From the human T2T-CHM13v2.0 reference genome, Homo sapiens, in NCBI RefSeq assembly GCF_009914755.1, contig NC_060926.1: a stretch of DNA of 64,000 nt; one strand, written 5' to 3'. Each line of letters begins with the position of its first letter. Position 1 is the first letter of the stretch. The position numbers were made by a program, and so were the translations under genes. The notes below the pieces were generated by a model, which saw only the letters and a list, made by a program, of their open reading frames with translations, had not been told where the DNA came from and ran no database searches. Shown piece by piece: positions 42,689 through 50,043 of the stretch.

Positions 42689-43238
42689 TAACGTCAAAAT
42701 TTCTTCAACCAGTTTCATTAACTCACATATACTTTCTGGGTCAGCTTTGTTCTTAAGCACTGAAGTATCCCTGGATAAGTCACTTTAGATGCCCCCCATC
42801 ACTTTATGAAATTCTTCCATATGAGTCATGGTGAATGGCAGATGATGGCAAATAAAGAAAAATGACATGTCTAGTATATACATTTGCTACTCATAACATG
42901 GTAGTGCTGGTGTAGTTCCACAGCACATTGAAATTACTTGTTCATACTCATCACATCTAAACAATATTTTGTGAGCAGCTATCATTTTATCTTTTTAATC
43001 TTAGCAAGATGCTGTTACTAGCATGTTCTAGCAACAGTGTTGTTGAGTTCAAGTTAACTTCTCTCTAGGTCATGAACCAATTAATAAGCTGCTTATGACA
43101 TAGCAGGATCAGTAACTATTCTAAAATATTTGCATCTTAATGGAAGATTCCTGAAGAAAAATGAATTTAACCTAAATTATTAATAGTAATACTGTGAATT
43201 TTTGAGAAGTTGGCTGAGTTGAAAATAATTTTGGGGGC

Positions 43239-44321
43239 TGTTGGGTGAAATTCACCCCTGATATTTCACGTAGATTCTTTTCTATTTTCCTTAAGTGTCA
43301 GCCGTTCTGAGAAATAAAGGGACAGAGTACAAAAGAGAGAAATTTTAAAGCTGGGTGTCTGGGGGAGACATCACATGTCGGCAGGTTCCGTGATGCCCCC
43401 TGAGCCGTAAAACCAGCAAGTTTTTATTAGTGATTTTCAAAAGGGGAGGGAGTGTACGAATAGGGTGTAGGTCACAGAGATTCCATGCTTCACAAGGTAA
43501 TAAAATATCACAAGGCAAATGGAGGCAGGGCGAGATCACAGGACCACAGGACCGGGGAAAAATTAAAATTGCTAATGAAGTTTCAGGCACGCATTGTCAT
43601 TGATAACATCTTATCAGGAGACAGGGTTTGAGAGCAGACAACCGGTCTGATGAAAATTTATTAGGCGGAATTTCCTCGTCCTAATAAGCCTGGGAGTGCT
43701 TCGGGAGACCAGGGCATATTTCATCCCTTAGCTATGATCGTGAAAGACAGCCGTCCCCAAAGCGGCCATTTCAGAGGCTTCCCCTTAGGGTCACATTCTC
43801 TTTCTCAGAAATGTTCCTTGCTGAGAAAAAGAATTCAGCGATATTTCTTCTATTTGCTTTTGAAAGAAGAGAAATATGGCTCTGTTCCACCCAGCTCACA
43901 GGCAGCCAGAGTTTAAGGTTATCTCCCTTGTTCTCTGAACATTGCTGTTACCTTGTTCTTTTTTCAAGGTGCCCAGATTTCATATTGTTCAAACACACAT
44001 GCTCTACAAACAATTTGTGCAGTTAATGCAATCATTACAGGGTCCTGAGGCAACATATAACCTTAGCTTACGAAGATGACAGGATTAAGAGATTAAAGTA
44101 AAGACAGGCGTAGGAAATCACAAGAGTATTGATTAAGGAAGTGATGTGTCCATTAAATCTTCACAATTTATGTTCAGAGATTGCAGTAAAGACAGGCATA
44201 AGAAATTATAAAAGTACTAATTTGGGGAACTAATAAATGTCCATGAAATCTTCACAATTTATGTTCTTCTGCCATGGCTTCAGCCGGTCCCTCTGTTTGG
44301 GGTCCCTGACTTCCTGCAACA
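43239..44321 (-). repeat. MER11 3' LTR
   Basis: Preceded on the minus strand by the PPT AAAAAGAAAGGGAGAGA (44322-44338); ends ..CACCCAACA at the TSD. Confidence 0.92.
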
Positions 44322-44339
44322 TCTCTCCCTTTCTTTTTA

Positions 44340-45757
44340 TACAAATGTGCCATGCGATGAAGGCTTGTTCGTTCTCTCAATTTTGACGTGGGATTCTTTG
44401 ACTGGTCCGGCACACTAAAGACAAGCCAATTAAACAGAGAAACATAATTCCAAAATTTACTACAGTGGAGCCCCTAATAGACTTAATCTAAGTTGTGGGG
44501 TTTAGTCTAGAATGATTTTCTGCCATCTGATCTAATGCCTCAGCTCCAGGCACAATGGGTAAGTGAACTTGAGAGGCTTCAAAAATTTGTTTCTTTAATT
44601 TAGTTATGTTCAATGATAAATTATCTTCCCTACCCAGAAGGTGTCCTTTGACCATTTCCCATGAATGATCAGTCTCGTTATAGGAATATGGGGTGATACA
44701 GAAATCCGAAGTATTCCAATCGCACTGCATTTGCATGTGATGTTCGAGACTCACTACCTGATCTCCAAGCCAAATAACAACCTGTCTTAAATCATTAATT
44801 TGATTAGCCAATTTTTGATCAATGCCTTGTTGAGAATTCCACATTTGGGTGGAATTGGCTTGCCAATCATTAACAAAATGAGCCATTTGAATAGAATGAT
44901 GTAACACCATTCTCGCAGTGGTGGCCATTGCAGTGACTGTAATTAGGCCCATGATAACAGCGATTAAAGTGAAAAAAAATCTCTTAGATCTTTTTAGAAT
45001 TTGCTGTAACACTTCATTAATTAAATGTATTGAGGGGGAGGATTCCCAAGCTCTGGGCAAAGTTACCAGAATCCAGATTCCTTCTCGAGCTTGAACCAGC
45101 ATTACACTTTTCTTGGAGTCAAAATGGGAGTTAATATAAGTGTATAAATGACAATTAATGCATTGGACAGTTTGATTGTTCATCCAAATTTTGATATTTC
45201 CCACTAACAGCATGTAAGGAAGCGTAACACAACTCTGTATGTGAACAGTCAGGTTGGAGGTAAGTGAAGTCGAACGTCTGGATCTACGTTGATACTGAGA
45301 GTGGGGGACGGTAGTGGGGACAACAGACATAATAGTTTCCCCTTCCCATACTCACAGTCTAAACATGGCAATAGCCAATTTCTAAAGTTCTGGGTGTTCT
45401 GGGCTCAGAATGGGGAGTATCATATGAGGCCTCGTGGGGGTAATGCCTTTATCTTCCCATTTTAAGGGAATGAGCTGAACCTCCTATGCAAAGTAGAATG
45501 ATGATTCTCATTCTCCCGATAAGAAATAAAATAAGTAGGCTCCAGGCATTCCCTTCCACCAGAGGAGCAATTGTTTTTTAAATAGCCCTTTGGTGCCCAG
45601 TCTATTACTAAGCCATATGAGTCATTTTTTAATACTACTCCATGTGAGTTAAAACACAGTCTTCCCAAATTAAAGTTTTAGATGGGCCCTCAAAATTTTT
45701 AGGGCATGGTTTTCCTGCAGGTTTATATTGAAAGTATGGGGTATCTCTCATTACTCC
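44340..45757 (-). pseudogene. HERV-K11 env remnant (SU C-terminal part and TM); longest ORF 44488..45330, 280 aa
   Basis: VIDWAPKG in SU, furin site RSKR, fusion peptide [31 protein letters not shown] (CX7C) loop. TAG stop lies just before the membrane anchor, with upstream frameshifts. Confidence 0.9.
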
Positions 45758-45776
45758 ACATGCACTTAGGAAAAAA

Positions 45777-45794
45777 AGACCATGTGGGGCGCCA
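45777..45794 (-). other. Primer binding site, tRNA-Lys-like
   Basis: TGGCGCCCCACATGGTC, 2 nt after the 5' LTR end. Confidence 0.85.
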
Positions 45795-45796
45795 GA

Positions 45797-46879
45797 TATC
45801 AGGTGAAATTCACCCGATATTTCATGTAGGTTCTTTTTTATTTTCCTTAAGTGTCGGCCGTTCTGAGAAATAAAGGGACAGAGTACAAAAGAGAGAAATT
45901 TTAAAGCTGGGTGTCTGGGGGAGATATCACATGTCGGCAGGTTCTGTGATGCCCCCTGAGCCGTAAAACCAGCAAGTTTTTATTAGTGATTTTCAAAGAA
46001 GGAAGGAGTGTACAAATAAGGTGTAGGTCACAGAGATCACATGCTTCACAAAGTAATAAAATACCACAAGGCAAATGGAGGCAGGGTGAGATCACAAGAC
46101 CACAGGACCAAGGCAAAATTAAAATTGCTAATGAAGTTTCAGGCACGCATTGTCATTGATAACATCTTATCAGGAGACAAGGTTTGAGAGCAGACAACCA
46201 GTCTGACTAAAATTTATTAGGCAGGAATTTCCTCGTCCTAATAAGCCTAGGAGTGCTACAGGAGACGGAAGCTTATTTCATCCCTTAGCTATGACTGTAA
46301 AAGACAGCCGTTCCCAAAGCGGCCATTTCAGAGGCCTCCCCTTAAGGACACATTCTCTTTCTCAAGGATGTTCCTTGCTGAGAAAAAGAATTTAGTGATA
46401 TTTCTCCTATTTGCTTTTGAAAGAAGAGAAATATGGCTCTGTTCCACCTGGCTCACAGGCAGCGAGATTTTAAGGTTATCTCCCTTGTTCTCTGAACATT
46501 GCTGTTTTCTTGTTCTTTTTTCAAGGTGCCCAGATTTCATATTGTTCAAACACACATGCTCTACATACAATTTGTGCAGTTAATGCAATCATCACAAGGT
46601 CCTAGGCCGACCTACAGCCTCAGCTTACGAAGATACAAGATTAAGAGATTAAAGTAAAGACAGGCATAAGAAATCAAAAGAGTATTGATTAAGGAAGTGG
46701 TAAGTGTCCATTAAATCTTCACAATTTATGTTCAGAGATTGCAGTAAAGACAGGTGTAAGAAATTATAAAAGTATTACTTTAAAGAACTAATAAATGTCC
46801 ATGAAATGTTCACAGTTTATGTTCTTCTGCCATGGCTTCAGCCGGTCCCTCCATTCAAGGTCCCTGACTTCCTGCAACA
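45797..46879 (-). repeat. MER11 5' LTR with hyper-edited U3
   Basis: Direct repeat of 43239-44321, followed by the PBS. AATAAA at 45979-45984 (minus strand). Confidence 0.92.
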
Positions 46880-48140
46880 GGGGGCAAAGGACTCTTTGTC
46901 TTCAAATTTCCCTCCACCTTGCTCATCATCAAGGTAGTCCAAATGAAAGAACTCTGAGTGCTTCTGGGCTGGCTGATTGGCTTTTAAGTTGTCTTCTTCC
47001 TATTAGAGTTCTAAACTCCATCTCCATAGATAGAAACTGCAGGCCATATGAGAGACCCAATATACATGAAGTTATGGAATAATGGGAAGAGTAGTTGGAG
47101 TGGTGATAGGATTATTATAATACATTTCCTTGCAATTGCTTATCCAGTCACCTGTCTTCACCAGACTGAGTTGCCAGAGTAGAGATGTCTACCTTATGCA
47201 AACAGATCCCCTAGCCAGTACCTTGCACATAAAGATAGCATGTTTAATGAATTTTGGGGATAAATGATTTTAAGGCATTGGTCATGGTATGATTAATAAA
47301 ATGGCATATCTGCATCATAAAAACTGAAAGTGCCAGCAGTTCAGATTGCATCAGCAAGGGAGGGCATGTTTATTTCTGAATGCTGAATCCTGAGTAAACA
47401 ATATCATCTTTCACAGTGAGCCACATCAGTATTTTCTGGTTTATAAATGCCTTTCTTAATATCCCAGCTCCATCAAAGAGAAATTAGGCAATTGGAACAC
47501 TATTTTATAAACTGACTTATAATAAAGTCTCGTGTCTCCCTACATGACTAAGTGCCTCACAAATGCTTTGTCTAACACTTACTTGTTGAGTATTAGAACA
47601 TTAGTTGCAGACTTAATGTTACCATGTTGTAATTTTCACGTGGTTGAAAAGTTAACATAATGTAGAAATGTGAAATTGAACTGGTCGACTATGAGCAGCA
47701 GCCCTGCTAAGATCCATTTCTCAATCCTCATTATTTCAGCTCTTGGCTTATTGTCTTTGCTGCCTTCTCCTATTACTCACAAAACTGCCAAATAAGTCCC
47801 TGAGGATGCACTAGCACAGGGCTTCTGGACAATAGTGTTTAGACAGTTTACATCATGGGACCAATAAAGCCAATACGTTTGTCATTGTTACAAAAAAAAG
47901 ATAAAAACAAGCCTGAGTTCTCGTTTTGTTAATTGACCCACAGCTTTAGAAGGAAGAGGGCAAATTTGGATGAGAAACAATGAGAAAGCAAATTTTCAGG
48001 GAACTGACTTGTAGGTTTTCAGTTTAAATGATGCTTAATAGAATAGAGAAGACATGAGAATTTTAATAACTTTGAATCCACAGTGGGAACTATCTTGGAA
48101 AAAAAGAATGACATAAAAATTATTATTCTTTTCTATTCAG

Positions 48141-49961: not shown

Positions 49962-50043
49962 ACTTGCCATTGAGGGAAAATATTTCTCAAGTTTAAACCA
50001 AAGCAAACAAAAAGCACATGATGATATATAGTCCTAATAAAAT

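What the first reader, a model, noticed from the sequence alone, without database searches (positions are those of the whole stretch)
45990..46879. Fossil plus-strand APOBEC3G-type editing confined to U3 of the 5' LTR of an HML-8 provirus
Seen: aligning the two LTRs by eye gives about 25 G>A differences (about 20 outside CpG) in the 5' LTR on the + strand, nearly all GG>AG. Examples (3' LTR > 5' LTR): GGGGAGGG>AAGGAAGG, TAGGG>TAAGG, CAAGGT>CAAAGT, CAGGA>CAAGA, CTGGGAG>CTAGGAG, TTTGGGGAAC>TTTAAAGAAC. Reciprocal changes are rare, and most G runs on the U5 side of the AATAAA (45797-45975) are intact. The provirus is on the minus strand, so these are CC>CT changes on the viral PLUS strand. Established: APOBEC3G deaminates the 3' C of CC in single-stranded DNA, usually giving sense-strand G>A. 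In vif-deficient HIV-1 it also gives C>T in the 5' U3 and PBS, which are transiently single-stranded during reverse transcription. Inference: this is a germline-fixed record of that rarer plus-strand editing. Screens for sense G>A would miss it, and it would inflate LTR-LTR age estimates.
Basis: partly seen in the sequence, partly recalled or inferred. Interest (0 to 1): 0.8.

Follow-up and report, generated by a model that had tools for sequence, protein, structure and literature searches.

The report
APOBEC3G-type plus-strand editing, 5' LTR
One end (the 5' LTR) of an ancient, largely deleted retrovirus insertion near LANCL1 carries a dense one-strand burst of C-to-T changes of the kind made by the antiviral enzyme APOBEC3G, on the DNA strand that this enzyme is usually thought not to reach.

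Summary
The element is the published HML8 provirus 2q34a (MER11C LTRs), on the minus strand, with an intact 6-bp target-site duplication and only about 1.5 kb left between its LTRs.

I polarised the LTR-LTR differences with 34 other MER11 copies. The 5' LTR has 48 derived changes and the 3' LTR has 24. The whole excess is 20 non-CpG CC>CT changes on the viral plus strand: 20 of 61 CC sites against 2 of 161 other C sites (p=6.5e-11).

- **Context:** CCC sites are nearly saturated, 14 of 15 up to LTR nt 879. The background in 35 other copies is 23 of 812.
- **Upstream limit:** editing runs to within 22 nt of the LTR's outer edge and is absent from the abutting duplication copy and the host flank.
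- **Other regions:** it is also absent from the U5 side, the PBS, the internal remnant and the 3' LTR.
- **Other proviruses:** three other two-LTR HML-8 proviruses lack it.

Best reading (about 0.8): APOBEC3G-type deamination of single-stranded plus-strand U3 DNA before integration.

Still open: the exact reverse-transcription intermediate, where U3 ends and R begins, and whether ape orthologues share the edits. My searches found no ERV example in print. ERV-wide screens used sense C>T clusters as negative controls.

The parts
45797..46879 (-). 5' LTR (MER11C type, 1083 nt), the edited copy
   Evidence: Direct repeat with 43239-44321. Starts TGTTGCAGG and is followed by a 2-nt spacer and the PBS. 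It is 86-90% identical to other genomic copies, against 89-93% for the 3' LTR.
45999..46858 (-). Edited zone: 24 derived sense-strand C>T changes, 20 of them non-CpG CC>CT; 14 of 15 CCC sites changed
   Evidence: CCC trinucleotides on the viral sense strand number 1 here against 17 in the homologous part of the 3' LTR.
45797..45998 (-). Unedited 3' part of the 5' LTR (polyA signal and U5 side): 0 of 9 CC sites and 0 of 4 CCC sites changed
   Evidence: CCC 14/15 vs 0/4, Fisher p=0.0013. Caveat: a GGGGG/CCCCC hairpin is predicted in the single strand.
45979..45984 (-). AATAAA at LTR nt 896, the likely polyadenylation signal; the last edit lies 15 nt upstream of it
   Evidence: Which AATAAA is actually used is inferred from position, not shown.
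45780..45794 (-). Primer-binding site, tRNA-Lys type (the type is recalled); its C run is intact
44322..45796 (-). Internal remnant: PBS plus about 25 nt joined to the last 1436 nt before the PPT (3' part of the internal region); no CC>CT signal
   Evidence: other proviruses match query nt 40-1475 as one block. CC>CT 1/75, GG>AG 6/74.
44322..44338 (-). Polypurine tract abutting the 3' LTR
43239..44321 (-). 3' LTR, the unedited sister copy
   Evidence: 24 derived changes, CC>CT 2.
46880..46885 (.). Target-site duplication copy next to the 5' LTR (GGGGGC on +). Its three CCC-context sites on the viral-sense strand are unedited.
43233..43238 (.). Target-site duplication copy next to the 3' LTR, identical to the other copy

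Best explanation
During the single reverse-transcription cycle that produced this provirus, about 20-30 million years ago in a hominoid ancestor, a cytidine deaminase with APOBEC3G's specificity acted on the viral plus DNA strand. That specificity is the 3' C of CC, and above all CCC. The enzyme acted on what became the U3 part (perhaps also part of R) of the 5' LTR while that stretch was single-stranded.

The 5' LTR is built from plus-strand strong-stop DNA, and its minus strand is copied from that DNA. Uracils made there are therefore fixed as C>T in the 5' LTR alone. The 3' LTR keeps the unedited sequence.

Shown: the polarity, context, strand, density and limits of the changes. Inferred: the enzyme, the timing before integration, and which intermediate was exposed. 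My best guess for the intermediate is strong-stop DNA whose U5/PBS end was already duplex while its U3 part still awaited minus-strand completion.
For: 1. Polarity. The T alleles are derived. At 21 of 24 sites at most 3 of 34 other MER11 copies carry T.

2. Context. Non-CpG CC scores 20/61 against 2/161 for other C (p=6.5e-11). By the -2 base: C 14/19, T 4/15, A 1/12, G 1/13. TC is not enriched. CC/CCC is the APOBEC3G context named in PMC1635257 and PMC4864454 (passages).

3. One strand only. The mirror change GG>AG scores 1/44.

4. One LTR only. The 3' LTR has 2 CC>CT. Without the 20 edits the derived counts are 28 vs 22 (p=0.48).

5. Outlier against an empirical null. CCC>CCT is 14/19 here, against 0-3 per copy and 23/812 in total over 35 other copies.

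6. Limits match the viral DNA. In the first 100 LTR nt, 5/7 CC sites are edited. The three CCC-context sites of the duplication copy, 22-26 nt beyond the outermost edit, are intact and identical to the other duplication copy (0/3 vs 14/15, p=0.005). The 500-nt flank keeps 9 CCC.

7. An intact 6-bp duplication means one integration event, so both LTRs came from one reverse transcript.

8. Precedent. A PLoS Pathogens paper cites Yu et al. [quoted passage not shown]
Against: 1. Minus-strand editing is weak, although it is normally the main APOBEC3G trace. In the 1436 nt just upstream of the PPT, where it should peak (PMC1635257), GG>AG is only 6/74. Non-CpG G>A vs C>T is 13 vs 4 (p=0.03). Saturating plus-strand editing with a nearly spared minus strand is not what the HIV-1 work describes.

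2. In the textbook strand-displacement scheme, plus-strand strong-stop DNA is never free. [quoted passage not shown]

3. The PBS C run is intact. As I recall its abstract, the HIV-1 report also named the PBS as a target.

4. The U5-side limit rests on few sites (0/4 CCC, 0/9 CC). Three of the unedited C's lie in a predicted hairpin, though the fold as a whole is no better than shuffles (z=-0.40).

5. This is one case. Three other two-LTR HML-8 proviruses and 34 other MER11 copies, mostly solo, show nothing similar.

6. Orthologues were not examined.
Confidence: 0.8

Rival explanations
1. Post-integration clustered mutation of chromosomal DNA by an APOBEC3G-like activity in the germline. This would be a strand-coordinated cluster like those reported in hominid genome evolution, for example on resected or transcription-exposed single-stranded DNA.
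For: Strand-coordinated C>T clusters with a CCC motif in hominid genomes are in print (PMC4864454; abstract and passages). Read-through from LANCL1, which lies on the same strand with its 3' end at 50027, would expose the viral plus strand as the non-template strand (gene table; inference).
Against: - The cluster is saturating right up to the LTR edge (all four CCC sites in LTR nt 1-100).
- It then stops: the abutting duplication copy scores 0/3 CCC sites, and the flank keeps 9 CCC in 500 nt.
- The internal region and the 3' LTR, 2.5 kb away on the same strand, are untouched.
- Twenty changes over 860 nt would be a very large cluster.
Confidence: 0.07
2. The 5' LTR is not an edited copy. It would descend from a different MER11 variant, acquired by recombination, gene conversion, or intermolecular plus-strand transfer from a co-packaged genome, so the T alleles would be inherited.
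For: MER11 has several subfamilies and HML-8 proviruses are structurally mosaic (PMC10194239; abstract and passages). A retroviral particle carries two genomes (established knowledge).
Against: - A whole-genome search with the 5' LTR finds its own 3' LTR as the best non-self match (92%), then the same copies found with the 3' LTR, at 90% or less.
- No copy carries the T set.
- An inherited variant would not differ almost only at the 3' C of CC/CCC on one strand.
- The duplication is intact.
- The U3 of a 5' LTR is not transcribed into genomic RNA, so edits made there cannot be passed on to progeny (established retrovirology).
Confidence: 0.04
3. Ordinary neutral decay plus chance or alignment artefact: CpG deamination and mutable C runs.
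For: Three of the 24 C>T changes are at ancestral CpG sites. The LTRs are old, 5.8-7.6% diverged.
Against: - Twenty of the 24 are non-CpG.
- The same procedure on 35 other copies of similar age gives 0-8 CC>CT and 0-3 CCC>CCT.
- The binomial p for 14/19 against the 2.8% background is 2e-18.
- Neutral decay after integration is strand-symmetric, yet GG>AG is 1/44.
Confidence: 0.01

Closest known systems
APOBEC3G G>A hypermutation of endogenous and exogenous retroviruses (HIV-1 lacking Vif; HERV-K proviruses; mouse Pmv/Mpmv by mouse APOBEC3)
   Same: A dense, one-strand run of C deaminations in CC/CCC context. It is confined to viral DNA, was made before integration, and was fixed in the germline as a fossil (PMC2041998 and PMC4866542 passages).
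   Different: - The edited strand is the plus strand, so the change reads as sense C>T rather than sense G>A.
- Only the U3 side of the 5' LTR is affected.
- The region where minus-strand editing should peak is nearly clean.
- The cited ERV studies treat sense C>T as the negative control.
Rare plus-strand C>T changes in the 5' U3 and PBS of Vif-deficient HIV-1 (Yu et al. 2004, Nat Struct Mol Biol; paper not held, abstract recalled, cited in PMC4117599)
   Same: Sense-strand C>T attributed to APOBEC3G at a place where the plus strand may be briefly single-stranded, and the location in the 5' U3.
   Different: - There the changes are rare and sit beside heavy G>A editing. Here they are saturating (14/15 CCC) with little G>A.
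- There the setting is cell culture and a lentivirus. Here it is a germline-fixed betaretrovirus-like HML-8 element.
- The PBS is not edited here.
APOBEC3G-like clustered mutations in hominid chromosomal DNA (PMC4864454)
   Same: Strand-coordinated C>T changes with a CCC motif, inherited through the germline.
   Different: Those clusters lie in host DNA and are defined from as few as two mutations. This one holds 20 changes and ends at the boundary of the viral DNA.
Plus-strand C>T changes in MMTV proviruses lacking Rem, attributed to AID (PMC6692512)
   Same: A betaretrovirus whose proviruses carry plus-strand C>T changes made by an AID/APOBEC family enzyme (abstract and passages).
   Different: The motif there is WRC, studied in env and in somatic tumours. 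Here the motif is CC/CCC, with A or G at -2 disfavoured (1/12 and 1/13).

Membership tests
HERV-K(HML-8) provirus with MER11C LTRs | Two LTRs in direct orientation flanked by a short target-site duplication, with a PBS after the 5' LTR and a PPT before the 3' LTR | tested here: met
   Listed as locus 2q34a, MER11C, minus strand, 3642 bp, within LANCL1-AS1, in PMC10194239 (table passage).
HERV-K(HML-8) provirus with MER11C LTRs | Internal sequence homologous to other HML-8 proviruses | tested here: met
   internal nt 40-1475 match about 30 other loci at 89-94% as one block. gag, pro, pol and most of env are absent.
APOBEC3G editing footprint | C>T at the 3' C of 5'-CC, strongest at CCC, and not at TC | tested here: met
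   CC 20/61 against other C 2/161. The -2 base: C 14/19, T 4/15, A 1/12, G 1/13.
APOBEC3G editing footprint | Strand-coordinated and restricted to reverse-transcribed DNA (made before integration) | tested here: met
   GG>AG is 1/44. The duplication copy and flank are unedited.
APOBEC3G editing footprint | Canonical form: minus strand edited (sense G>A), rising towards the PPT | tested here: not met
   The edits are sense C>T. In the 1436 nt before the PPT, GG>AG is 6/74 and total non-CpG G>A vs C>T is 13 vs 4.
APOBEC3G editing footprint | The enzyme responsible is APOBEC3G itself | not testable with these tools
   Inferred from context alone. Presence of the gene in hominoid ancestors is established knowledge and was not tested here.
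Plus-strand 5' U3/PBS editing as reported for Vif-deficient HIV-1 | Sense C>T in the U3 of the 5' LTR but not of the 3' LTR | tested here: met
Plus-strand 5' U3/PBS editing as reported for Vif-deficient HIV-1 | C>T also in the PBS (recalled from the abstract of Yu et al. 2004) | tested here: not met
   The PBS keeps its run of four C's. No outgroup PBS was compared in depth.
Plus-strand 5' U3/PBS editing as reported for Vif-deficient HIV-1 | A minor by-product beside heavy minus-strand G>A editing | tested here: not met
   only a mild G>A excess in the internal remnant.
Germline chromosomal APOBEC3G-like mutation cluster | Lies in host DNA without regard to retroelement boundaries | tested here: not met
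   Editing ends within 26 nt of the LTR edge, and the flank keeps 9 CCC per 500 nt.

The most novel reading that the evidence does not exclude
This provirus records a separate, late route of APOBEC3G restriction. The enzyme would attack a long-lived plus-strand U3 overhang of a stalled late reverse-transcription intermediate, after most of the minus strand had already been covered. That would wreck the promoter of the new provirus while leaving little or no G>A trace. If so, part of the sense-strand C>T clusters that ERV-wide screens discard as noise (12,857 sites against 137,954 G>A sites in PMC4866542) are real plus-strand editing. 5'-LTR-specific CC>CT would then be a general, overlooked fossil marker of that intermediate.
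Probability: 0.25. Interest if true: 0.75.

Novelty: new variant of a known kind. Interest (0 to 1): 0.62.

Why it matters
- **Plus-strand intermediate.** It is sequence-level evidence from a germline that the plus-strand U3 of a retrovirus can stay single-stranded long enough to be almost fully deaminated. One review says this should not happen (PMC4488724).
- **Host-virus history.** It would add HML-8, active about 20-30 million years ago, to the retroviruses that met an APOBEC3G-type activity in hominoid ancestors.
- **Effect on the provirus.** The 5' U3 is the promoter. This copy was probably crippled at birth in a way that G>A screens cannot see.
- **Screening methods.** Sense C>T clusters serve as negative controls in ERV editing screens. 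Real signal among them would bias those controls.
- **Dating.** The edits raise LTR-LTR divergence from 5.8% to 7.6%. With the formula quoted in PMC10194239 that is 19.1 instead of 14.4 million years.

Tried and rejected
1. Polarising the host flank failed. A genome search with 46880-47879 found only itself, so no repeat copies can act as outgroups. I used the duplication copy and CCC counts instead.

2. Finding 5' ends of other proviruses mostly failed.
- The stretch after the LTR in locus L009 turned out to be a tRNA copy followed by an Alu.
- A junction pattern found only this locus and one unrelated site.
- Searches with five other 3' LTRs revealed three partner 5' LTRs. Only those three pairs could be compared, and without outgroups.

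The internal-region outgroup is therefore 12 of the 30 or so full-length matches, the 12 best.

4. Sources not available.
- Earlier scan findings were not open.
- Yu et al. 2004 and Lee et al. 2008 are not held.
- No supplements were opened. Supplementary tables of PMC4866542 might list C>T control clusters by family.

5. Hairpin. A fold of the U5-side single strand gave a local GGGGG/CCCCC hairpin, but the overall z-score was -0.40. I report this only as a caveat.

6. ARAGORN did not call the tRNA-like stretch in L009.

7. Readings rejected: AID (WRC motif), TC-preferring APOBEC3 enzymes, RNA editing of the genome (which would mark both LTRs), GC-biased gene conversion (wrong direction), and antisense-transcription R-loops (wrong strand).

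8. Not in print as far as I could search. Searches returned no paper describing plus-strand APOBEC editing of an endogenous retrovirus LTR. The HML8 catalogue has no occurrence of 'APOBEC' or 'hypermutation'.

Full report
**What is there.** Windows 43239-44321 and 45797-46879 are two 1083-nt copies of one LTR in direct orientation.
- Read on the minus strand, each begins TGTTGCAGG.
- The upper copy is followed by a 2-nt spacer and a PBS (45794-45780).
- The lower copy is preceded by a polypurine tract (44338-44322).
- Both ends are flanked by the same 6 bases, GGGGGC on the + strand, at 43233-43238 and 46880-46885.

This is therefore one integration event, with the 5' LTR at the higher coordinates. 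Only 1475 nt lie between the LTRs. Nt 40-1475 of that stretch match about 30 other genomic loci at 89-94% as one block that ends at the PPT. So the PBS region is joined directly to the last 1436 nt of the internal sequence.

The locus is in print as HML8 2q34a. The catalogue lists it as MER11C, minus strand, hg38 chr2:210424462-210428103, inside LANCL1-AS1, with gibbon as the oldest carrier and an age of 30.3 My (comparative range 30-20). I saw this in a table passage of PMC10194239. That paper has no occurrence of 'APOBEC' or 'hypermutation'.

**Checking the observation.** A global alignment of the two LTRs has 82 substitutions and 6 indel columns over 1081 columns. On the viral sense strand, written as 3' allele > 5' allele, the counts are C>T 29, T>C 13, G>A 13, A>G 11 and transversions 16.

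To polarise these I searched the window's own genome with each LTR in turn. Each search scored 40 of about 2150 candidates. The two result sets together gave 34 distinct other copies, which I aligned with the two LTRs.

At each column where the LTRs differ, I counted how many of the 34 carry each allele. A change was called derived in one LTR if at least 70% of the 34 share the other LTR's allele.
- Of 84 differing columns, 48 are derived in the 5' LTR, 24 in the 3' LTR and 12 are ambiguous.
- 5'-derived: C>T 24, G>A 10, T>C 4, A>G 1, transversions 9.
- 3'-derived: G>A 10, C>T 6, A>G 2, T>C 2, transversions 4.

**Context and strand.** With contexts read in the sister LTR:

| Comparison | Edited / sites | Fisher p vs 5' LTR CC>CT |
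|---|---|---|
| Non-CpG CC>CT, 5' LTR | 20/61 | – |
| Other non-CpG C>T, 5' LTR | 2/161 | 6.5e-11 |
| Mirror change GG>AG, 5' LTR | 1/44 | 5e-5 |
| CC>CT, 3' LTR | 2/61 | 2.6e-5 |

Without the 20 edits, the derived counts are 28 vs 22 (p=0.48), against 48 vs 24 with them (p=0.006). The edits therefore account for the whole excess of the 5' LTR.

Re-reading contexts in the 34 other copies changes two assignments. Site 46857 is an ancestral CpG (G follows in 25 of 34). Site 46365 is an ancestral CCC (32-33 of 34). The total stays at 20 non-CpG changes with C at -1, 1 with T at -1, and 3 at CpG.

The base at -2 matters strongly: C 14/19, T 4/15, A 1/12, G 1/13. This is the CCC > TCC preference associated with APOBEC3G. 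The CC preference is stated in PMC1635257, and PMC4864454 defines its A3G clusters by a CCC mutation (passages).

**Empirical null.** I ran the same procedure on each of the other 35 aligned copies, using its nearest copy as sister and the rest as outgroup.
- CC>CT was 0-8 per copy and GG>AG was 0-5.
- CCC>CCT was 0-3 per copy, 23 of 812 in total, against 14 of 19 here (binomial p=2e-18).
- No subfamily carries the T alleles. The best non-self genome match of the 5' LTR is its own 3' LTR at 92%, and all other copies are at 90% or less.

**Limits of the edited zone.**
- *Upstream.* In the first 100 LTR nt, 5 of 7 CC sites are edited, and the outermost edit is at 46858. The duplication copy at 46880-46885 carries a run of five C's on the viral-sense strand, giving three CCC-context sites. 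It is intact and identical to the other duplication copy (0/3 vs 14/15, p=0.005).
- *Trinucleotide counts.* CCC on the viral-sense strand numbers 1 in the 881-nt edited zone, 17 in the homologous zone of the 3' LTR, and 9 in the first 500 nt of host flank. The flank is single-copy and could not be polarised further.
- *Downstream.* The last edit is at 45999 (LTR nt 879). From nt 938 to the end, 0 of 9 CC sites and 0 of 4 CCC sites are edited. Up to nt 879 the figures are 20/50 and 14/15 (p=0.02 and p=0.0013).
- *What the limit contains.* It lies in nt 880-957, which holds the AATAAA at nt 896. The U3/R junction is not mapped, so 'U3' should read 'U3, possibly with part of R'.
- *Caveat.* Three of the unedited C's lie in a GGGGG/CCCCC hairpin predicted for the single strand. 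The sharpness of this limit is therefore less secure than that of the upstream one.
- *PBS.* Its C run is intact.

**The rest of the provirus.** I compared the internal remnant with the 12 best of about 30 full-length matches.
- CC>CT is 1/75.
- GG>AG is 6/74, equal to the highest value among the 12 comparison copies.
- Non-CpG G>A vs C>T is 13 vs 4 (p=0.03), with three TGG>TAG changes within 34 nt near the PPT.

That is at most a faint minus-strand trace, in the very region where such editing should peak (PMC1635257 abstract and passages). The 3' LTR shows no GG>AG enrichment, with 2 such changes.

**Is it general?** I found three other two-LTR HML-8 proviruses and compared them without outgroups. 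They have 2, 1 and 1 sites with T in the 5' LTR and C in the 3' LTR in CC context, against 20 here. So this is 1 of 4 pairs examined. The 34 other MER11 copies show nothing similar; judged by their flanks most are solo LTRs, and one is a proviral 3' LTR.

**Mechanism.** The established scheme of reverse transcription says the following.
- Both U3 copies descend from the one U3 at the 3' end of the RNA.
- The 5' LTR is formed from plus-strand strong-stop DNA and a minus strand copied from it.
- The 3' LTR keeps the original minus strand.

A deamination of strong-stop plus DNA is therefore the simplest event that marks the 5' LTR alone, on the plus strand, within the limits of the viral DNA. Those are the features shown above.

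A citing paper states that rare C-to-T changes occur where the HIV-1 plus strand may be briefly single-stranded, and credits Yu et al. 2004 (PMC4117599 passage and reference list). The original was not held. As I recall its abstract, it names the 5' U3 and the PBS.

Which intermediate was exposed is inferred, not shown. The spared U5/PBS end would fit strong-stop DNA already paired at that end, with the minus-strand 3' end or with spare minus-strand strong-stop DNA, while U3 waited for minus-strand completion. Why the plus strand was saturated while the minus strand was nearly spared is unexplained. A short, already deleted genome, or a stalled late intermediate, are possibilities I could not test.

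**Rivals.**
- *Chromosomal APOBEC3G-like cluster after integration* (such clusters are in print, PMC4864454). The stop at the LTR edge and the clean internal region and 3' LTR count against it.
- *Inheritance from a different MER11 variant.* No such variant was found, the changes are confined to CC context, and the duplication is intact.
- *Neutral decay.* The per-copy null and the strand asymmetry exclude it.

**Comparison with what is known.** APOBEC3 footprints in endogenous retroviruses are described as sense G>A. Sense C>T serves as the control for post-integration change. This is so in the mouse MLV study (PMC2041998 passages). It is also so in the vertebrate-wide LTR screen, which reports 137,954 G>A against 12,857 C>T clustered sites and treats the latter as noise (PMC4866542 passages). 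[quoted passage not shown] My full-text searches returned no description of plus-strand editing fixed in an endogenous retrovirus. Subscription papers and supplements were not covered.

**Verdict.** It is a new variant of a known kind: an APOBEC3G-type fossil on the unexpected strand, limited to the U3 side of the 5' LTR. One side effect is that LTR-LTR divergence rises from 5.8% to 7.6%. By the formula quoted in PMC10194239 that is 19.1 instead of 14.4 My.

Noticed in passing
L009:1501-2650 (G000:C7:98370185-98371335): A MER11 LTR is followed by the same 2-nt spacer and then the complement of an almost whole tRNA-Lys(CTT), about 70 nt. The unit is embedded in an Alu, with no HML-8 internal sequence after it. 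It looks like an integrated plus-strand strong-stop DNA that read through the entire tRNA primer. ARAGORN did not call the tRNA-like stretch.
   Followed up: partly
window 44475-44508 and 44322-45757: The internal remnant has a mild sense G>A excess: 13 non-CpG G>A vs 4 C>T (p=0.03). Three TGG>TAG changes fall within 34 nt close to the PPT. This may be a faint minus-strand APOBEC3G trace from the same replication cycle.
   Followed up: partly
window 45757-45796: About 39 nt (spacer, PBS and a T-rich stretch) are joined directly to the last 1436 nt of the internal region. gag, pro, pol and most of env are missing. I could not tell whether the deletion arose during reverse transcription or after integration.
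   Followed up: no
window 43808-43810 and 46365-46367: One ancestral CCC run was changed in both LTRs at different C's: the first two in the 3' LTR and the third in the 5' LTR.
   Followed up: no
window 45837-45842: A G>A change private to the 5' LTR creates an extra AATAAA in U5, which the 3' LTR lacks.
   Followed up: no
window 43239-44321: The 3' LTR's own derived changes include 10 non-CpG G>A changes, 5 of them in GA context, against 5 non-CpG C>T. The number is too small to call editing of the displaced minus strand.
   Followed up: no
L049 (G000:C7:86407633-86408714): This solo MER11 copy has the second-highest private CC>CT count (8/70), but only 3/23 at CCC and no clustering. It is probably background.
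   Followed up: partly
L012, L013, L019 (G000:C15 at 26.47, 28.60 and 20.27 Mb): Three MER11 copies with near-identical Alu-containing flanks are 96.5-98.2% identical to each other. They are evidently copies made by segmental duplication rather than separate integrations.
   Followed up: no
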